Shown piece by piece: positions 20,941 through 35,000 of a stretch of 55,040 bases of DNA. This DNA is from Prorocentrum cordatum (lineage: Eukaryota). The DNA lies in the NCBI GenBank assembly GCA_963575745.1, contig CAUYUJ010000189.1:62001-117040 (forward strand). The letters are read 5' to 3'. The notes under the pieces were generated by a model. It was not told the DNA's origin, did no database searches, and saw only the letters and a list, made by a program, of their open reading frames with translations. The position numbers and the translations under genes are program-made. Position 1 is the stretch's first letter. Each line of letters opens with the position of its first letter.

Positions 20941-21090
20941 ATGCGGCGGCCGAACCACGCCTCGCGCGCCGCGGCCAGCTCCGCCCTGGCGGGGACGGCG
21001 CGCGCGGCATCCGCGGACCCCCAGGGCGAGGGCGGCGGCGGCCTGGACGGCCTGGAGGAGCCGACACGGAGGAAGCGGGCCCTTTTCGAG
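20941..21090 (+). CDS. MATH gene exon 1 (start and donor tentative)
   Basis: gccATG start, open frame to ...KRALFE, GA donor running into a (GGA)n tract. Upstream exons cannot be excluded. Confidence 0.55.
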
Positions 21091-21111
21091 GAGGAGGGGG
21101 AGGGGGGAAGA

Positions 21112-21142
<31 letters not shown>

Positions 21143-24100
21143 GAGGAGGAGGAGGAGGAGGAGGAGGAGGAGGAGGAGGAGGAGGGAGAGGAGGAGGAGG
21201 AGGAGGAGGAGGAGGAGGAGGAGGAGGAGGAGGAGGGAGGAGGAAGGGGAGGAGGCGGCGGAGGAGGAGGATGAGGAGGAGGAGGAGGAGGAGAGGAGGA
21301 GGGCGGGGGCGGACCAGCTCAGGGGGGGAAGCATCGACCTGGAATCGGCGATGCATCGCCGACAGATCGGCGAGATAGGCCCCGTTGGTGGATGCGCACG
21401 CTCCAACAAAATGGGCCTGCCCCGAGGCACCTCCCTGGGTTTTTCGGGGACGCGCAAACATGGATTTGCGATCCATGGATTTGGCGCGAGGTCGCCAAAT
21501 CCATGGATCGGGGGAGGTGCCCTCCCAAAAATGCGGACGCTACCTCCTCCTCCTCCTCCTCCTCCTCCTCCTCCTCGTCCTCCTCCTCCTCCTCCTCCTC
21601 CTCCTCCTCCTCCTCCTTCGCGTTGCCCCTTCTGGCACGCTCCTCTGAGCTTTTCGAGTTGGGGATCGACTACATACTTGATTTACCCCCACATTGATTT
21701 TTCGTCGAACCTACGGGAAATACTAGGGGAAATACGGCGAATACTCCGTAGATCAATCGAACATTCTATGTATTTTTCGTGGATTCGACGGATCAATCAA
21801 TTTTGGGGTAAATCAATTCTGTGGTCGATCCCTTACTCGAGCTTTCCAGAGCGCTCTGCGATTGCCGTGGCGACCGATACGTCCTCCAGCACCGCCAGAC
21901 CTCAGAGACCCCCGATCTGCACTGGTTCGATTTTTGTTCCAGTCCTGGCTTCGTCCTGCGTTTTTGGACGCGATAGAACGGGGGGGCGAGAAATGGGGGG
22001 GGGCGCGGGCTGCTGAAAAGGGTCCGGGCCCTTTGGGGCCCCTAAAGGGGCCCTTCAGGGCCCCAGATGGGGGCCTTTTAGAGACCGAAGCGGCACCTTT
22101 CTCACCCCCTTCTTTTTATCGCCCCCCGTGATTTCGCGCCCAACGTTTCCCTCGGGAACCCTTCTCCTTGTGCAAGAGGAGGAGTTCCGCGAGCTGCAGC
22201 ATGCGCTCGAGGGCGAGCGCGCGGAGGTGGCGGCGCTGCAGAAGAGCCTCGGCGAGCTGTTCATGAGGATCACCACCCACCAAACCACCCCAACCCCAAC
22301 CCGAAGGCCCCACTTTGCCCTCCATTCCCAGTGGGGGGGGCGTTGGGGAAACACATGTGGAACCTGTCCCCCCCCAAACCCGCATTGCGGGTCTTCGGGT
22401 TAGTTTGGGGTGGTCTGGTAGGTAGCCAGAGGAACGCTTGCGAGGAGTACCTGAATAAGCTGGAGCGGCGCATCCAGGCGACCGAAAGTCCTCCTCCTCC
22501 TCCTCCTCCTTCTCCTCATCCTGCTCTCCTCCTCCTCCTGCTGCTCCTCCTCCTCCTCCCCCTCCTCCTCCTCCTCCTCCTCCTCCTCCTCCTCCTACTC
22601 CTCCTCCCCCTCCTCCTCCCCCTCCCCCTCCCCCTCCCCTCCTCCTCCCCCTCCTCCTCCCCCATGGAGGCACTGGCACCCGCGGACCTTCTCTCGTGTT
22701 CGCCCTTCCTCGGCCTCCCTGGGGATCCTTGCCCGTCGCCACGGCGGGGTTCGCCTCGAAGGTCTGGTCAGGCGGCACCCTCGAGGGGTCCAGGGACAAG
22801 GGCTCGTTCCGATTCCTCCGATTCGATTCGATTCGACCTCGATGGCTGCCAATTCCGATTCGATTCGACTTGGGATTCCGATTCCGATGCCGATCTCTCA
22901 GTGGAGGCCTACTGGCCTGCCGATTTCTGCCGATTCGACTTCTCCCGACTTGGCTGCCGACTGACGCCGATCCGATTCGTTTCGATCGCTGATCCGACTT
23001 CTCGATTCGACCCTGGGCTCTCCTGCAGGGAGTATGGTAGGTTTGCGTCGCGTTGACGCGGCAGCGACTCCAGCGCGGGCGCTCGAGGTCAAAACGCCGC
23101 CAGTGAGTCAGAATCGGCCGATGCCGAGCGATCTGAGCTGTCGGGAAGCGGAGATCGTTCAAAATTGAACGATCCACGCGGTGTCAGAAATCAACGCCCA
23201 GGTCGTCGCCGCACGAACCTGCCGTAGCGGTATCGGTACCTCCTGGTTTCCCGAGTATGCGCGGAGACACCAACCGAGCAATCACGCGTGTACCCGCGCC
23301 ACGGATGGGGGAATCGTCCCACAAGGGGCATGCGGGGCAATGAGCTTGGCGGAGCAGACCAGAAGGCCAAGGAGAGAGGGAGTCTTGTTGCTGAGTCCTT
23401 GCCTTCAACTCGATGCGGCAGCGTGCCTTCCTTGAGCAGCGCGCCAGCCGCAGTCTCACCTCTCTGGCGCTGCCTGGGTGGCGAGACGGCGCCCCCTTGA
23501 ACGTCACACGGGCTATGGATCACGAGTCAAGGAAGGACCAGAAGAGATTGCGTTCGAGACGCGTTTTTTTTTCCTCGTCGACCGGGAGCGGCACAGCCCA
23601 GACGGACGCCACGCCCGGGAGGCCGGCACGCGGGGGATCTGCGCGAAGAGCCAGCTGCTGAAGCCGGCCGGCCTCCCGCCGACCTCCCGCCCGACCTCCC
23701 GCCGGCGGAGCTGCCCTCGCGTTTCCTGCGCCCGCCTCCGCGGGCTGCCGGCGGTGGGCGAGCGATCGCGCTCGTCGATGCCTCGCAGGCTTCCCGCATC
23801 ACAGAGGCAACCACGGGCATCAGGCTTGCTCCGCGCTGTCGTGTGCGTGTGTGTACGTGTGTGTACGTGTGTGTGTGTGTGTGTGTGGATTTTCAGTGAC
23901 GGAGCGAGTCTCTCCCCTGTGCCGGGCTGAGCTGAGGTGTGACAGGAGACAGGGTGGAGGCTGTGCTTGGCGTGAAAAGGATCGTGGAGCGCCCCAGGTG
24001 ATTGAGAACAAGGAGGTGGACACCGTGCAGTGGCGCATCGAGAACGTGGAGCAAGTTCGATCCAAGCACGTGAAGGGCCAGTTCCTGGCGTCCCCAGAGT

Positions 24101-24242
24101 TCTCCGCGTGCGCCGTGGGGGTGGGTGGGTTGTTGGAGGAGGCGAGGGGTGAGCGGGATTGATGATGATGCAAATGATAGTGACGATGATGATTGTGATT
24201 GTGATGATAATGATGATGATGATGATAATGATGATGATGATA

Positions 24243-24303
<61 letters not shown>

Positions 24304-24556
24304 CGATGATGATGATGATGATGATGATGATGATAGTGATGATGATGATGAAGCTGCTGCTGATGATGATTATGATGATGAGTATGATGATGCTGATGCT
24401 GATTATGATAGTGATGATGATGATGATTATGATGATGATGAGGATGATGATGAGGATGCTCATGATGATGTTGATGATGATGTTGGCTGATGATGGTGAT
24501 GGCTGATGATTATGATGATACTGTTGGTGATGATCATGGGGGTGTCGGGTATGATT

Positions 24557-24637
<81 letters not shown>

Positions 24638-27600
24638 TCGATGATGATGCTGATGCTGCTGATGATTATGATGATGGTGATGATGATGGTGGTTGTGATG
24701 ATGCTGTCGATGATGCTGATGGTGATGATGATGAGGAGGAGGAGGAGGAGCAGGAAGATGACCAGAGTAGACCTAAGATGCGTCAGCGGTGCTGGAAGAC
24801 ACCGTCCCGTCCCAAGTCCTCTCCTCAAGCTTTTCTTTATAAGAAGGGACCCCTAGAAAGGCCAGCATCCCATGGGTTTGCAATTTAGGCGATAATCCCG
24901 TTTGGAGCAGCAACTGCCCTGCATCCTCCCAGCGCGTAACCAGGAATGCGAATAGGTATGATCACACAAGTCAACGAGGTGCCCTATTCTGTTCTCTTTT
25001 GAAAAAGGGCCGCCCCTATTCGCGTGCCTGTTGCAGTAATCTATTTATCTGGTCATGCGCTTCGAAGACGTTTCAAGTGAGAGCCCCACTTTGAAAAGGA
25101 ACCACCCTCCAATCTTGACCACTGCGCTGTAGCCTCGCCCAGTGCGCTTTGCCCAGTGTGCTGTAGCCTCGCCCGTGTACGGGCCCCTTTTGGTTTGACC
25201 GGTCTTCTGTCTGTCTGTCCTCTAATCTTGCTTTACAAACCAGGGCTCGACCTGACAGTGTTTTTTTGCGATTACGTGGACCGTTTCCGTTTTGATTTCG
25301 TTTCGCAGCGAAGACAGAACGAAAACGTAATGAGCAACAACGATGACAAGACGAAAACGAGAAAACATTGTTTAGCTCGAGCCTTCTTACAAACTTGCAA
25401 GACGAATGTGCGGTGCCAGGGCGAGAGCTCCATTTTACAAAGAAGCCACCCTCCATCCCTCTAACGGTTGCAAGCTTTTAAAAGGCGGCAGTGTGCGGCG
25501 CTACAGCGAGAACCTTATTTGGAGAAAGGAGCCGCCCTCTATCTTTGCAGTTGCTGCAAGCTTGCACATCGAATGTGCGCGGCGCCAAGGCGAGGGAGAT
25601 CAGCTTTGACCCCCTTTTCTCCGCATCCGTCTAGCTGTCGCAGTCTTTGAAACGACTGTGCGCGGCGCTAAGGCGAGAGCTCCATCTTGAAACCAACTGG
25701 CTGCATCCTGATACATGTCTTGAACCTGGCTTCATGATACTAACGGTGAGGTGGTATCAGGCGAAACATTTGGCCCGCCCTACCAACACGGTTGGGTGTG
25801 CGATGAAAGGAAGTTGCCTGTCAGGACGTCGGATGGTGGAGAACCTGAAGTGATGAATTGCGGACACCTCATCTATATGAATGGGCCCGGGTTCTTGGTA
25901 CCAACGCGCTGTAGAGGACGGAGGTCACAAGCGCTCATCGTGTTTGCAGTATGGGGTGGCAGTTCCTCCCTTGAGAAAAAACAGGAGCATTACATGAGCA
26001 GGGGGGAGGGTAGGGGTGTTTTCCCCCAGGCCCCCCACCCACCCACCCTCAAGGGTTTTTTTTGGAGGCAGCAAGCCTCAAGGGGTGTTTCTGGTGGGGT
26101 CAGGCTGTTTTCTTTTTCCCCGGATCCCCCCGGAAACCTTGAATCTTCCTTAAGAGGGGTTCGGCCGGGGGGGAGCTACTGTCCACCCGCCCCGTGGGGC
26201 ATCGCGTTCCTGATCGCTGGCCCCGCCGCAATGGCTCCATAGGCAACTGGGGGGAGGGAGGCGTTCAGGGGCGGCGAGTGCGACCAGAAGTGCTTCCCCC
26301 CATATGGGGCGCGAGGATTGGAAGGACCACGGGGCCGCGGGGCCCAGTCGGAGTGGGACCCTTTCACCACCCAGGGGAGCTTGGGGGACATCAGCTACGA
26401 CGCCCACTAAGCGCACTCTCACTAGCGTGGCGCAGCAGGCCTACGAGATCAAGGAACCCCAGGAGCAATACCTTGCGCGCGAGGCCACGAAGGGCACGTT
26501 GGCAGCTGGCCCGCGCGACAAGGAAGAGCCTCGCACCCGGCAGGATGGGCGCCGTGACGATCTGCAGGTGAAGCGGTTTCTGAGGAGGTCGGCCGCAGCC
26601 TGGCGCCACCCCGCCACGTTGATGCACGGCGAGGGCGCGGCCAAGAGAGACTGGCCAGTCTGGTGCTAAACGCGCGTGCAGAGCTTCACGCGCCACCCCA
26701 GCTTCGGCCACATCGTCGAGGGGCAGGCGGCCGACTGCGGCTGGCCTCAGGAGGCGACACGGCAGGCCATTGCGCTGCAGGCGCGCGACGACGCATGGCG
26801 CAGGAGTAGGGCGGGGGGGGCTCGCGCTCCAGCGGGACTTCAGAGCCCCCGCGGTCCGCGGCACCGTCCCTTGACATCGGAGTCGGATGCCCCATGGGTC
26901 CCGCTGGGCCCCGCAATCCCTCTACGACGACGAATGCCTGAGCGCGGTGCAGCACTGGGAGCAGCGGTGCATCTCCCACGTCCGCGCCCAACTGCATCTG
27001 CCTGCCTTCAACCGCGTCTTCCAGGGTTCGCGCGGCGACGCGCGCCCTTTAGTCATCCAGCGGCTGGCCGAACACACGTGCCAGAACGCGCGGGGCAAGG
27101 GCGAGCGGAGGCGCACTGCTCTCATCGGCGCCATGATGGGGCTTCCGGAGGAGGACCGTGGAAGGAGGTGTCGGCAGCAGCGCGGGCAGTGCGAGCGGCG
27201 GAATGGCCAGCGCCCTCGCGTCGTGCTCGCGCCGCGCCTATGCTCGGCATCAGCGGCTGTCCCCCTTGACATCGGCGTCGGCACCTACGTCTAGTTGGAA
27301 GGGCCCGACCTCGGGCAGCTCCCCCGCCTCGGAGGCGGGGCGGTGGGGGGCGCCGAGGCTAGCCTGGGCAGTGGCCGCGGTGGCGGCGGCGGCAGCGGCA
27401 GCCGCAGCCATTGGCGAGACTGGCAGACCAGCGGGTGCTGCGGCTACATCTTCAGCATCGGCACCCAGCCCGACAGGACCTACCTCTCCGAGGGACGGGC
27501 GGTCGCCCGCGGTCGCGCCCAGCAGGGGTGAGCATCCTACGGGGGTTGGCAGAAGGGTTCCAGTGGTGGAATGCGCCAAGCCTGCCAGTTCCCATGCGAC

Positions 27601-30600: not shown

Positions 30601-31239
30601 ATGCGAACACGACTCATAGCACTAATAAACATGTTACTTATAATTATACGTATGTTACAACTGATACTGAACATCGTACTACGAATGCTAAGAATAATAA
30701 TCAGGCGGGGCGGAGGAGGACGAGCAGGTGTCCGAAGAAACAAGGGAGGATCAAAGGGGATGAAGGTATTTGGGGTGACCGTGATGATGGGAACGGTAGG
30801 GATGACGAAGGAACTGTTGCTGATGATGAAAGTTTTGACGTTCGCGATGTTGGCGTGGATGTTGATAGCGCTGGTGATACTGTGATTGTTGCTGGTGGTG
30901 TGTTCGATGATGCTGTTGGTGATACTGGCGGCGACAACGATGATGGTCATGGTGCTGACGTGATGGAGGTGGCGGTGATGATGGCGATGCTGCTGATGAA
31001 CATGCCAATGGCGATTCTGATGATGCGGGTGAGGATTATGTGAGGGTGATGATGGTGATGAGGACGATGCTGAAGTGGTTGATGGATGTGCCAGCGATTG
31101 TGATGGTGCTAACAATGACGGCGTTGCTGATGACGATGGTACTGCTATTGTAGGGGTTGTTGTTGATCATGATTGCGATAATGTTACGACAGCTGGGGAC
31201 GACGAATCTGATGATGAGGATGCTGATGATGACGATGAC

Positions 31240-31281
<42 letters not shown>

Positions 31282-31655
31282 CATGATCATGATCATGATC
31301 ATGATGACGAATGTGGTGGTCATGACGACGCGGCTGATGATGATTCCATCCACGATTCTGATGATTATGATGACGGTGGTGGCGACGCCGGTGACGATGA
31401 TGATGGTAAGTGTGATGGTGTTGGTGTTATCGATGATGATGGTGGTGGTGATAAGTGCGATTTTTATGGCAAGAGTGATACTGAGGGTGGGGATGGAGGC
31501 GTTTATGATGATGGCGTTGCTGTTGATGCTGGCGGTCAATGGTAATTCGTAGACGGTAGATGGATGTTGGTAATGATGGGAAGGAGGAGGAGGACAAAGA
31601 CGATGACGACGATGATAATATGGATGATGATGATGATGCTGATGATGATGATGAC

Positions 31656-31689
<34 letters not shown>

Positions 31690-31774
31690 ATTGTTATGCT
31701 GATGATGAGGGTGGTGATGCTGATGCAAATTATGATTATGATGTTGATGCTGTTGATGATGAATATGATGGCGT

Positions 31775-31815
<41 letters not shown>

Positions 31816-31878
31816 GTGATGATGAAAGTTATGATGGTGGTGATGATGGTGATCATGATGATGGCGATGCTGATGAAA

Positions 31879-31941
<63 letters not shown>

Positions 31942-31993
31942 CTGGTGGTGGTGGTGTTGCTGTTGATGATGGTAAGCATGACGAACATGATGC

Positions 31994-32040
<47 letters not shown>

Positions 32041-35000
32041 CTCATGGTGTTGATGATGCTGATGATGCTGCTGCTGCGGCTGCTGCGGCTGCTGCGGCTT
32101 CTGCTGCTGCTGCTGCTGAGGAGGAGGAGGAGGAGGAGGATGAGGAGGGGGAGGAGCCCCAGTCGCGAGCGGCACATTCACACGCAAGTTGCTACGAGTC
32201 CTGACTTTTCGCATTGCAGGCGAATTTTCAGCCAACGACGGGTTTTGTCGCAGGAGGGGCAAGTGAGGAGGGGCGAGCCAGGGAGTTGCGAGCATGTCTG
32301 GGCGAGCAAGCGGCTTGGAAAAGATCTGGGCAGCCCAAGCTTCTTGGACGGTGTCAGTCCCCCCCCCGGTGCGATAGGACACCTGAGAGGAGGAAAGGTA
32401 AGGCTTCGGGGTTGCACACAAACAGCCCCCTCCACACTGGCTGTCCACAGCAGGCCTTCCCGCTGGCTGTCCACATCAGTCTGGGGCTGGTTGTCAGCTG
32501 GCCTAGAGGGCGACGGGGGACGCGCCAGAGGAGGCTCGGCTCGGGGGGCAGGCGGCTGGGAGCAGCTGCGTGGACGAGGGGGGGGGGACGGCTCGAGGAG
32601 CGCTTCTTGCAGAGCGCGCGTTCTGGTGAGCTTACGGGATCCTATCCCGTTCCGCTCCTCCCGCGCGCCATGGGCCAGGTGTGGTCTGGGCGGCTTCAGA
32701 TTTCACTTCTACCCGCGCGGAGACGACTTCTGTGACGAGGCGGCCTCGGGTCGTTTTGCTCGGCCTTTCTGGCAGCTGACGCCGCCAGGTGCCCAACGCA
32801 GAGAGGCAGGGTCGCCTGCACGGATGCCGGCGCGTAAGCTGCCCGCCTACGTAAAGTCGCGCGTGCGCGCCCTCGTTTTCAATGCGGCGTGCCGCGCTGG
32901 CGGACTGTGTCAGCCGTGTCGCAAATGTCGCTCTGTCTTTCCGCGTAAGGCCCGCTTTTTGTTCGTCGATCGGATGCTGCTCTGCTTCTGCCGTTCGTTC
33001 GTTCGGAGTGCTTGCTCCGGCCACGAGCTGCCGCCGACAGAGTGCGGAGCGGCCCTTCCCATTCGTTCAGCCCTGCCCCGCGGGTTCTGTCGATGGGTGC
33101 CATTTCGTGAACCCAGCTGACAGTCCGTGCTAACACTCCTCCTCCTCCTCCTCCTCCTCCTCCTCCTCCCCCTCCTCCTCCTCCTCCTCCTCCTCCTTCC
33201 CCTCCTCCATTCCTTCCTCCCTTTTCCTTGTAAATGTCTCATCCCCCCAGGCGTGTCGGTAGAGCTGGCCATGCATTTCGCCACTTAAGATCTCGAAGCG
33301 TGAAGGTTTCAACTGTTTCATGGATGGAGGGCGGTTAGATTTCAACATGCGGTTCTAACCTTAGCGGGCGTGCATTCGTCTTAAACGTTTGCAGCAGTTC
33401 CAAGGGTGGAGGGCGGGTCGTTTCAATGTGTGGCTTTCGTTTGATCGCCGCGCACATTCGTCTGCAACTTTTGTAGCAATTTCAAGGATGGAGGGCAGGT
33501 CGGTTCAAAACGTGGCTCTCGCTTTAGCGCCGCACGCATTTTGGTTTATATCCTACACTTTCGCAGCAGTTTCAAGGTTGGAGGGCATGTCATGTTCAAA
33601 ATGTGGTTCTTCCCTTAGCGCCGTGCACCCTCGTCTTGGAAGTTTGCAGCAGTCTCAAGGATGGTTGGATGACCGTTTTCAAAGCGCGGGTCTTGCCTTA
33701 GCGCCACGCGCCCTCGTCTTAGTTTGCAGCAGCTTCAAGGACGGAGGGCGGGTCGTTTTCAAATTTAGTTCCCCACATGTTTGGTGGGGTTATGGTTTTC
33801 TTCCCTCTCGCGTCCCACCCGCGTCTCACTCACACACTCACCTCCCTCCCTCCTTCCTCCTCACCTCTTCCTTTCTCGCCTCGTCCACGCGCAGCACAAC
33901 ACATGCACGACACGCACACGAGACACGTGTCTGCAGCCGCACGCATGCACACACTCGCACAAACACACACACACACACTCACAACGCCAGTGCACGCCTG
34001 ACGTGTTCACGGCATCACACACCCACGACGTATGCACCACATACTGGGCACCCACGTGAGACACAAGCCCCGATACAGCCGCGCACGCATCATACACATG
34101 CCACATACTGGGCACCCACATGAGAGACACATCCAGATGCAGCCGCACACGCATCACAGACATGACACGCACCTCGCAGCACACGCGCGCAATATTCGCA
34201 AGGCGTGGCAGGCGTGGCATTTTCTCGACACCAGAGGGGGTGCGCAGGGTGGTGGTCCCTCACCGCGGTCTCTATCCGTCCCAGGGTCGCGGGGCGTGGC
34301 AGGCGAGGCACTTTCTCGACACCAGAAGGGGGTGCGCAGGGGGTGGTCCCTCACCGCGGTCTCTATCCGTCCCAGGGTCGCGGGGCGTGGCAGGCGAGGC
34401 ACTTTCTCGACACCAGAAGGGGGTGCGCAGGGGGTGGTCCCTTACCGCGGTCTCTATCCGTCCCAGGGTCGCGGGGCGTGGCAGGCGAGGCACTTTCTCG
34501 ACACCAGAAGGGGGTGCGCAGGGGTTGGTCCCTCACCGCGGTCTCTATCCGTCCCAGGGTCGCGGGGCGTGGCAGGCGAGGCACTTTCTCGACACCAGAA
34601 GGGGGTGCGCAGGGGGTGGTCCCTCACCGCGGTCGCTATCCGTGCCAGGGTCGCGGGGCGTGGCAGGCGAGGCACTTTCTCGACACCAGAGGGGGGTGCG
34701 CAGGGGGTGGTCGCTTACCGCGGTCTCTATCCGTCCCAGGGTCGCGGGGCGTGGCAGGCGTGGCACTTTCTCGACACCAGAGGGGGTGCGCAGGGTGGTG
34801 GTCCTTCACATCGGTCTCTATCCGTCCCAGGGTCGCGGGGCGTGGCAGGTGTAGCATTTTCTTGACGCAACGGGTGGTGCGCATGGGGGCAGTTCTCGCC
34901 GTTGCATTCCATCAGTGGCACTAGCAGGGGTTTGCACAGCATCCAGATCGCCAGGGTACCCAATCGAAGGTCGCAGTTGCTTGTTGCTTGGTGCGCACAT

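What the first reader, a model, noticed from the sequence alone, without database searches (positions are those of the whole stretch)
22265..22433. Intron 2 is a transposon whose 5-bp TSD supplies both splice sites (Introner-type gain with a GA donor)
Seen: the 164-bp intron has ~38-bp inverted repeats starting a few nt inside each end, and GAGGA is duplicated across both junctions (AT-GAG|GA-tc ... ca-GAG|GA-AC). Removing the element plus one GAGGA restores FMRNACEE exactly. Known: Introner DNA transposons create introns by co-opting TSD sequence as splice sites and are described in dinoflagellates. Inference: tolerance of GA/GC donors would let an element with a 5-bp TSD be spliced out precisely when it lands on an AGG(A/C/T) target, without carrying its own splice sites.
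Basis: partly seen in the sequence, partly recalled or inferred. Interest (0 to 1): 0.8.

Follow-up and report, generated by a model that had tools for sequence, protein, structure and literature searches.

The report
Transposon-made intron with GA donor
A 159-base miniature transposon sits in a dinoflagellate-type gene and is spliced out exactly because the 5-base target it duplicated supplies both splice sites; this way of making introns is already published for dinoflagellates.

Summary
GAGGA stands at 22265-22269 and 22429-22433. Between the two copies lies a 159-nt element (22270-22428) with 36-nt imperfect terminal inverted repeats.

- **Splicing:** Transcript contigs from 3 of 4 runs laid (3 studies) skip exactly 164 nt. 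Of the six equivalent cuts, only 22268-22431 reads G[TCA]..AG, so this is a GA-AG intron.
- **Reading frame:** Removal gives ELFMRNACEEYL, and M-R-N is invariant in five transcriptome homologues.
- **Inverted repeat:** None of 500 shuffles reaches the terminal inverted-repeat score of this intron. The gene's other seven introns give 121-192 of 500, and one gives 4 of 500.
- **Other copies:** Contigs at 85-100% identity match only the element. Five of the eight listed begin exactly at 22270.

Two caveats apply. The 5-nt boundary repeat is weak evidence on its own. Four of this gene's eight introns have boundary repeats of 5-6 nt, and 26% of random AG|GH...AG|G pairs in the window do. No genome was held, so I could not tabulate target duplications of other copies or check for the intron in orthologues.

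The mechanism is already published: Polarella introner classes 12-14 (Roy et al. 2020). Introner elements are also reported in Prorocentrum cordatum, the likely source. This is a new member of a known kind, of low to moderate interest. The public gene model mis-splices this intron.

The parts
22179..22267 (+). Exon 2 of a coiled-coil plus MATH-like gene (...EEFRELQHALEGERAEVAALQKSLGELFM, then AG of the Arg codon)
   Evidence: Transcript contigs cover 22176-22264 with 0 other letters. Translation. The upstream intron 21058-22178 is the only G[TCA]..AG cut.
22265..22269 (+). Upstream copy of the duplicated target GAGGA. Its last two bases (GA, 22268-22269) are the 5' splice site and its bases 2-3 (AG) end the exon.
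   Evidence: The joint has 'both = 5'.
22268..22431 (+). Intron 2 as spliced: 164 nt, GA..AG, phase 2 inside an AGG (Arg) codon
   Evidence: Joint 22264->22429 skipping 164 nt in X1 (depth 117), X2 (9.5) and X9 (13.8). It is the only one of 6 equivalent cuts that reads G[TCA]..AG.
22270..22428 (.). The 159-nt MITE-like element itself. It has no coding capacity of its own.
   Evidence: Five of 8 listed element-only contigs begin their match exactly at 22270. The inverted-repeat arms lie symmetrically 5 nt inside both ends.
22275..22310 (+). Left arm of the terminal inverted repeat
   Evidence: 31 of 36 columns matched, one gap; 0 of 500 shuffles reach the score.
22389..22423 (-). Right arm of the terminal inverted repeat
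   Evidence: Contig X5 record 16 matches 22377-22425.
22429..22433 (+). Downstream copy of GAGGA. Its bases 2-3 (AG, 22430-22431) are the 3' splice site and its last two bases (GA) begin exon 3.
22432..22477 (+). Exon 3 (G of Arg, then NACEEYLNKLERRIQ), followed by the 1,520-nt GC-AG intron 3
   Evidence: Contigs cover 22429-22478 and then continue with the letters of exon 4 (table 7). Those letters lie at 23998 onward.

Best explanation
A non-autonomous DNA transposon with terminal inverted repeats (a MITE, 159 bp) inserted into the coding sequence TTC ATG AGG AAC of a coiled-coil/MATH-like gene. Insertion duplicated the 5-bp target GAGGA.

The target has the form N-AG-G-H, so each copy carries AG|GA. 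The upstream copy supplies an exon-final AG and a GA 5' splice site. The downstream copy supplies the AG 3' splice site and an exon-initial GA. The spliceosome of this organism accepts GA and GC donors. It therefore removes the element plus exactly one target copy (164 nt, 22268-22431), and the mRNA is restored to its pre-insertion sequence.

**Shown:** the exact 164-nt splice, the GA-AG reading, the inverted repeat, restoration of a conserved peptide, and the existence of related copies whose similarity starts at the element's first base.

**Inferred:** that the insertion created the intron rather than landing in an older one, that the duplication is 5 nt rather than 4 nt, and that the inverted-repeat hairpin brings the two splice sites together.

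**Unknown:** the transposase family.
For: 1. **Splicing.** A joint skipping 164 nt with 5 nt of ambiguity is seen in 3 of 4 runs laid, from 3 studies. The same contigs run on into exon 4 across the 1,520-nt intron 3, so they are spliced transcripts.
2. **Splice sites.** Only 1 of 6 equivalent cuts reads G[TCA]..AG, and it is GA..AG.
3. **Frame.** The intron is not a multiple of 3 and has in-frame stops. The spliced product reads ELFMRNACEEYL. M41, R42 and N43 are invariant in an alignment with five transcriptome homologues.
4. **Inverted repeat.** Score 40 against 14.0 +/- 2.3, with 0 of 500 shuffles reaching it. Introns 1 and 3-7 of the same gene give 121-192 of 500. Intron 8 gives 4 of 500, on a low-complexity match. 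Fold z-scores are -3.64 and -3.58.
5. **The element fills the intron completely.** The arms lie 5 nt inside 22270 and 22428, and the GAGGA copies abut both ends.
6. **Multi-copy.**
   - Eight listed contigs in X1 and X5 match only element sequence at 85-100% identity.
   - Five begin at 22270. One of these has 44 unlike letters before that point.
   - One contig joins 22296 to 22403 through 29 other letters, which is a shorter relative.
   - A 1-nt deletion at 22294 is shared by 4 contigs.
   - P0011 and P0012 look like translated relatives.
7. **Size contrast.** The gene's other introns are 1,121-8,571 nt; this one is 164 nt.
8. **Published model.** Roy et al. 2020 describe a 5-nt NAGGH target duplication giving both splice sites, and find GA donors more often in recently gained introns.
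Against: - The 5-nt boundary repeat is common here: introns 1, 2, 3 and 7 of 8 have 5-6 nt. It is expected in 26% of AG|GH...AG|G pairs. Repeats of 2-9 bp at intron boundaries are a general dinoflagellate feature (Mendez et al. 2015, passages read).
- Only one copy lies in the 55-kb window.
- None of the 71 metagenome loci sharing the 19-mer core of the inverted repeat is a copy.
- A word-based protein search with the element's translation found nothing.
- The outermost 5 nt of the two ends match in only 2 of 5 positions (sequence).
- No DNA run held the stretch. An empty site or a processed DNA copy could not be examined, and the other copies' flanks were not visible.
Confidence: 0.8

Rival explanations
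1. An older, ordinary intron that happens to consist of, or was overwritten by, a MITE. On this reading the GAGGA repeat is the usual dinoflagellate boundary repeat (AG|G consensus at both ends) and not a target-site duplication.
For: Boundary repeats of 1-6 nt occur at all 8 introns of this gene, and 4 of 8 have 5-6 nt. A repeat of 5 nt or more occurs in 26% of random AG|GH...AG|G pairs. Identical repeated intron boundaries of 2-9 bp are described for dinoflagellates in general (PMC5032977). MITE-like palindromes do lie inside other introns, for example about 21653-21845 in intron 1.
Against: No intron sequence is left outside the element. The similarity of other copies starts at 22270, directly after GAGGA, and the arms are symmetric to both ends. 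A MITE landing in an existing intron should leave older intron sequence on at least one side, as it does in intron 1.
Confidence: 0.12
2. A hairpin-forming intron that is not mobile. On this reading the similar contigs come from duplicated copies of the same gene, or from chance C-rich/G-rich low-complexity matches.
For: The arms are C/A-rich and G/T-rich, so composition helps weak matches. Only one copy lies in the window. The public collections searched gave no full copy.
Against: The element-only contigs do not continue into exon 2 or exon 3. One has 44 unlike letters before 22270. tblastn finds no paralogue of the gene in the window. Shuffles that keep composition do not reach the inverted-repeat score.
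Confidence: 0.05
3. The joined form is a processed (retro-copied) DNA copy or an assembly effect, and not evidence of splicing.
For: All runs laid are Logan contigs. The kind of X1 is unknown, and X2 and X9 are only guessed to be RNA. No DNA run was available as a control.
Against: The same joint appears in three studies. It matches an ORF from a Logan contig (P0003) and the conserved peptide of five transcriptome homologues. The runs hold only about a tenth of the sampled words, as expected for exons and not for genomic DNA.
Confidence: 0.03

Closest known systems
Polarella glacialis introner-like elements, class 12 (Roy et al. 2020, bioRxiv 10.1101/2020.10.14.339549; published as Curr Biol 2023, seen only as a reference)
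   Same: A 5-nt target duplication of the form NAGGH, from which both the 5' and the 3' splice site are taken. The spliced-out piece is the element plus one duplication (text read).
   Different: Class 12 elements begin with C and mostly give GC donors. This element begins with T on both strands and gives a GA donor. The likely host is a different, GC-rich species. Sequence similarity to class 12 could not be tested because bioRxiv supplements are closed.
Polarella classes 13 and 14 (4-nt target duplication AGGH)
   Same: All four splice-site nucleotides come from the duplicated target AG|GH. AGGA is contained in the GAGGA seen here.
   Different: The symmetric position of the arms favours 5 nt here, though one copy cannot exclude 4 nt. 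Class 14 prefers GT donors.
Symbiodinium introner-like elements and Aureococcus/Micromonas Introners
   Same: A DNA transposon with inverted repeats and a target duplication creates a precisely spliced intron. GA donors are enriched among young introns.
   Different: In those families one splice site is carried by the element and only the other comes from the duplication (4-nt GHNN or 8 nt). Here the element carries neither.
'Introner elements' as scored in Amoebophrya (PMC7789003) and Prorocentrum cordatum (PMC10666404)
   Same: The operational pattern is inverted repeats of 8-20 nt and direct repeats of 3-5 nt within 30 nt of the intron ends. This intron fits it. The supplementary note of PMC10666404 reports such elements in 2.4% of P. 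cordatum introns.
   Different: Those surveys are pattern counts. They do not describe this family, its target or its splice-site use. Many Amoebophrya elements have non-canonical ends of many kinds, whereas this one is GA-AG.
Identical repeated intron boundary (IRIB) of dinoflagellate introns (Mendez et al. 2015, PMC5032977)
   Same: 2-9 bp around the 5' site are repeated at the 3' site and occur once in the mRNA, with AGG at the core. All eight introns of this gene show it.
   Different: IRIB is a description without a mechanism. Here the repeat flanks a recognisable transposon.

Membership tests
Introner / introner-like element (Roy et al. 2020; Gozashti et al. 2022) | It is a spliceosomal intron that is removed precisely from the transcript. 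| tested here: met
   Joint skipping 164 nt in 3 of 4 runs laid. The GA..AG cut is the only G[TCA]..AG option. The conserved peptide is restored.
Introner / introner-like element (Roy et al. 2020; Gozashti et al. 2022) | Similar over its whole length to many other introns of the same genome (Roy et al.: blastn E < 1e-10, with similarity beginning and ending near both splice sites). | tested here: inconclusive
   No genome was held. Eight listed contigs match parts of the element and five start at 22270. Two ORFs look like translated relatives. Whether those copies are introns is unknown.
Introner / introner-like element (Roy et al. 2020; Gozashti et al. 2022) | Splice site(s) recruited from the target-site duplication. 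| tested here: met
   GA donor at 22268-22269 and AG acceptor at 22430-22431 both lie inside the two GAGGA copies.
Introner / introner-like element (Roy et al. 2020; Gozashti et al. 2022) | A gained intron: absent at the homologous site in relatives. | not testable with these tools
   Homologues P0005-P0009 are transcript ORFs without genomic DNA.
Introner element, operational definition (Farhat et al. 2021; Dougan et al. 2023) | Inverted repeats of 8-20 nt and direct repeats of 3-5 nt within 30 nt of each intron end. | tested here: met
   Direct repeat GAGGA overlaps both borders. The arms start 7-8 nt inside the intron ends. Definitions read.
MITE (non-autonomous DNA transposon with terminal inverted repeats) | Short, non-coding, with terminal inverted repeats and a flanking target duplication. 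| tested here: met
   159 nt, 36-nt imperfect arms, 5-nt flanking repeat. That the repeat is a true duplication rests on one copy.
MITE (non-autonomous DNA transposon with terminal inverted repeats) | Many dispersed copies, and a related autonomous element that encodes the transposase. | tested here: inconclusive
   Copies are seen only as contigs of RNA-type runs. No second copy in the window. 0 of 71 metagenome loci is a copy. The autonomous partner was not sought, because no genome was held.
Polarella class 12 introner-like elements | 5-nt target duplication NAGGH or NNAGG, and an element that starts with C. | tested here: not met
   The target form is met (GAGGA). The element starts with T at 22270, and with T on the other strand at 22428. 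It works like class 12 but is not filed as a member.

The most novel reading that the evidence does not exclude
This would be a so-far undescribed MITE family of a GC-rich free-living dinoflagellate, tolerated in exons only when it lands on N-AG-G-H. It would give GA-AG introns that carry no splice signal of their own and rely on the inverted-repeat hairpin to bring the weak GA donor next to the acceptor. Gene predictors prefer GT-AG, so such introns would be mis-modelled genome-wide, as this one is, leaving frame errors in the public proteome.
Probability: 0.25. Interest if true: 0.45.

Novelty: new member of a known kind. Interest (0 to 1): 0.25.

Why it matters
This is a clean single-locus example in which every step of intron creation by a transposon can be read off the sequence. 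The example shows the target, the duplication, both splice sites taken from the duplication, a GA donor and the restored conserved codons. Transcript evidence supports it.

It adds nothing new in principle. The mechanism is published for Polarella, and introner elements have been counted in the likely source species.

Its practical value is for annotation. The public gene model at this locus chooses a GT-AG intron one base shorter and so reads exon 2 in the wrong frame. That suggests GA-donor introners are a systematic source of errors in dinoflagellate gene sets.

Tried and rejected
- **Whole genome:** none is held. Copies, their target duplications and an autonomous partner could not be searched.
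- **Second copy in the window:** blastn of 22265-22433 found only the element itself and its own inverted arm. The next best hit was 20 nt, E = 0.025.
- **Metagenome scan:** I used the 19-mer shared by both arms and got 71 loci.
  - BLAST and local alignment show none is a copy. The best local score is 28 of 159, and 0 of 71 reach 40.
  - 36 of 71 belong to one unrelated repeat family that shares only the 19-mer.
  - L062 matches 30 nt but has no inverted partner.
- **Word-based protein search** with the element's translation (28-90 aa): no candidate.
- **Representative search:** P0010 was rejected as an unrelated repetitive protein.
- **Whole-window inverted-repeat list:** dominated by (CCT)n/(AGG)n microsatellites. 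A self-BLAST with the low-complexity filter on dropped this element.
- **X5:** it gave no contig across the joint. This is lack of cover, not evidence against splicing.
- **No DNA run** held the stretch.
- **4-nt duplication (AGGA):** considered and not excluded. I prefer 5 nt because the arms are then symmetric.
- **Intron 8:** its terminal repeat (4 of 500 shuffles) is a low-complexity CTCC-rich match.
Full report
**What is in the sequence.**
- The pentamer GAGGA stands at 22265-22269 and again at 22429-22433, with 159 nt between the copies.
- Upstream, 22176-22265 reads EEEFRELQHALEGERAEVAALQKSLGELFM in an open frame.
- Joining 22267 to 22432 gives ...GELFMRNACEEYLNKLERRIQ. Reading through the insert instead gives 44 unrelated codons and a stop.
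- The insert has an imperfect terminal inverted repeat.
  - The repeat finder reports arms of 19 nt (89%) and 22 nt (77%).
  - A gapped alignment joins them into 36 columns with 31 matches and one gap, 22275-22310 against 22389-22423. Both arms begin 5 nt inside 22270 and 22428.

**Is it more than chance?**
- For the inverted repeat, yes.
  - The score is 40, against 14.0 +/- 2.3 in 500 shuffles of the two 80-nt ends, and 0 of 500 reach it.
  - The single-strand DNA fold has z = -3.64, with 1 of 200 dinucleotide shuffles as good.
  - The RNA fold with 20 nt of each exon has z = -3.58, with 0 of 200 as good.
- The same test on the gene's other introns serves as a control.
  - Introns 1 and 3-7 give 121-192 of 500.
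  - Intron 8 gives 4 of 500, but on a CTCC-rich low-complexity match.
- For the GAGGA repeat alone, only weakly.
  - Random pairs 164 nt apart in the window have a boundary repeat of 5 nt or more in 1.8% of trials.
  - Random pairs that already satisfy AG|GH...AG|G have one in 26% of trials.
  - The eight introns of this gene have boundary repeats of 6, 5, 5, 3, 4, 2, 5 and 1 nt.
  - Repeats of 2-9 bp at intron boundaries are a described general feature of dinoflagellate introns (Mendez et al. 2015, PMC5032977, passages read).

**Transcripts.**
- No run held more than about a tenth of the sampled words of 21650-22490, and no DNA holder was found.
- I laid four runs from four studies at 85% likeness.
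  - X1 (depth 117), X2 (9.5) and X9 (13.8) each have a contig that lies on 22176/22178/22240-22264 and 22429-22478 with 0 other letters. Each skips 164 nt, with 5 letters fitting either side.
  - X5 has no contig there.
  - Behind 22478 the same contigs continue with the letters of the next exon, which lies at 23998 onward in the window. They are therefore spliced transcripts and not an empty genomic site.
- Of the six equivalent cuts, only 22268-22431 reads G[TCA]..AG, and it is GA..AG.
- All runs were Logan contigs. The kind of X1 is unknown, and X2 and X9 are only guessed to be RNA.

**The gene.**
- A Logan-derived ORF (P0003, 199 aa) carries ...GELFMRNACEEYLNKLERRIQVIENK....
- It maps to nine exons between about 21054 and 47580.
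- The introns are 1,121, 164, 1,520, 8,571, 6,024, 1,955, 2,546 and 4,061 nt.
- The donors are GA, GA, GC, GT, GC, GT, GC and GC. All eight acceptors read AG|G.
- Its C-terminal part matches Pfam MATH_2 below the curated cut-off (27.2 bits against 32, E = 5e-6).
- Five homologues from transcriptomes are 68-74% identical overall, and all keep M-R-N and C-E-E-Y-L across the junction. The 164-nt removal therefore restores a conserved peptide exactly.
- P0004 carries the NCBI source name 'unnamed protein product, partial [Prorocentrum cordatum]' and is 95% identical on the exon-4 query. This is my only basis for naming the likely source species.
- The window's GC content and its GA and GC donors fit that species as described in PMC10666404 (passages).

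**Is the element mobile?**
- The window holds no second copy.
- In one search, contigs that do not belong to this locus match element sequence only.
  - In X1: 22270-22343 (3 other letters, 1 gap), 22270-22320, 22270-22311, 22295-22340 and 22295-22337.
  - In X5: 22270-22308 (0 other letters, 1 gap), 22270-22296 (0) and 22377-22425.
  - Five of these eight begin exactly at 22270, the first base after GAGGA. One of them has 44 unlike letters in front.
  - One X1 contig joins 22296 to 22403 through 29 other letters, which is a shorter relative keeping only the ends.
  - Four contigs share a 1-nt deletion at 22294.
  - The middle of the element (22346-22374) has no such cover.
  - Eighteen further pieces were not listed by the tool.
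- A search of 1.84 billion representative proteins with the element's 51-aa translation gave 3 hits at E <= 0.001.
  - One is an unrelated repetitive protein.
  - Two short ORFs look like translated relatives. P0011 is 51% identical over 49 aa and P0012 is 69% over 29 aa. Both end ...LGWS[AG]R where the element's arm supplies a stop.
- Against this, three searches found nothing.
  - The metagenome scan with the 19-mer core found 71 loci, none of which is a copy.
  - The word-based protein search found nothing.
- The family is therefore shown to be repeated. Its copy number, the flanks of its copies and their intron status are not known.

**Most likely mechanism.** A 159-bp MITE inserted at GAGGA within TTC ATG AGG AAC and duplicated the target. 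The target reads N-AG-G-H. The upstream copy therefore offers AG|GA as exon end and donor, and the downstream copy offers AG|GA as acceptor and exon start. Splicing removes the element plus one copy.
- The element carries no splice site of its own.
- It fills the intron completely, which argues that it created the intron and did not land in an older one. The MITE-like palindromes in intron 1 (about 21653-21845 and 21970-22130) sit well inside a longer intron.
- The hairpin would bring the two sites together. This is inferred from the fold only.

**Comparison with what is known.**
- Roy et al. 2020 (bioRxiv 10.1101/2020.10.14.339549; main text read; supplements closed) describe the following in Polarella glacialis.
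  - Class 12 has a 5-nt duplication, NAGGH or NNAGG. In the NAGGH case both splice sites come from the duplication.
  - Classes 13 and 14 have a 4-nt AGGH duplication.
  - GA donors are commoner in recently gained introns.
- Dougan et al. 2023 (PMC10666404; passages, supplementary note) report introner elements in 2.4% of P. cordatum introns. They used the pattern of Farhat et al. 2021 (PMC7789003), which this intron fits.
- The present element works like class 12. It begins with T and not C, gives GA and not GC, and lies in another host, so I do not file it in that class.
- My searches found no description of this particular family. The supplements of the Roy preprint, which list the elements, could not be seen.

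**Verdict.** Its evolutionary part, gain and absence in orthologues, is untested. The mechanism is already in print, so this is a new member of a known kind. Interest is low to moderate.

**By-product.** The public model P0004 uses a GT..AG intron at 22259-22421 (163 nt), which puts exon 2 in the wrong frame. No contig shows that junction.

Noticed in passing
window 22259-22421, and exon 2 at 22179-22267: The public gene model (P0004, NCBI name 'unnamed protein product, partial [Prorocentrum cordatum]') uses a GT..AG intron of 163 nt here instead of the transcript-supported GA..AG intron of 164 nt. Exon 2 is therefore read in the wrong frame (RRSSASCSMRSRASARRWRRCRRASASCS). No contig laid shows that junction.
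   Followed up: yes
window 21058-22178 (intron 1): Intron 1 is also GA..AG, with a 6-nt boundary repeat GAGGAG and no inverted repeat at its ends (192 of 500 shuffles). Inside it lie a strong palindromic MITE-like element at about 21653-21845 (75-column arms) and a weaker one at about 21970-22130. Contigs of X1 and X5 match 21653-21689 with 5 other letters at high summed depth, so that element is repeated too.
   Followed up: partly
window 21054-47580 (whole gene): All eight introns have AG|G acceptors. Donors are GA x2, GC x4 and GT x2. Boundary repeats are 6, 5, 5, 3, 4, 2, 5 and 1 nt. The long introns 3, 5 and 7 keep 4-5-nt repeats (CCAGG, GAGG, AGGCC) without terminal inverted repeats. These could be decayed older insertions or simply the splice consensus.
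   Followed up: partly
P0011 and P0012: The two ORFs that look like translated relatives of the element are filed in EukProt under a green-alga transcriptome name (Pyramimonas sp. CCMP1952). This points either to cross-contamination or mislabelling of that data set, or to a wider distribution of the family. Not resolved.
   Followed up: no
L001-L071, e.g. L002 1501-1519: 36 of the 71 metagenome loci that share the exact 19-mer ACCCACCAAACCACCCCAA belong to one abundant, unrelated AT-richer repeat family, concentrated in a few metagenomes. The 19-mer is embedded in a conserved context on both sides.
   Followed up: partly
window 21041-21054, and P0003 residues 1-11: The X1 transcript contig joins exon 2 to an exon ending at 21054 (...LDGL|EEEF). 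The ORF P0003 begins MRGAQPRPQPR|EEEF, which was not found next to it in the window. This may be an alternative first exon.
   Followed up: no
window 21540-21620, 22490-22660, 24150-24800, 31000-32200: Long trinucleotide microsatellites and low-complexity tracts, (CCT)n and GAT/ATC-rich runs, fill much of the introns. They dominate the inverted-repeat and ORF listings.
   Followed up: no
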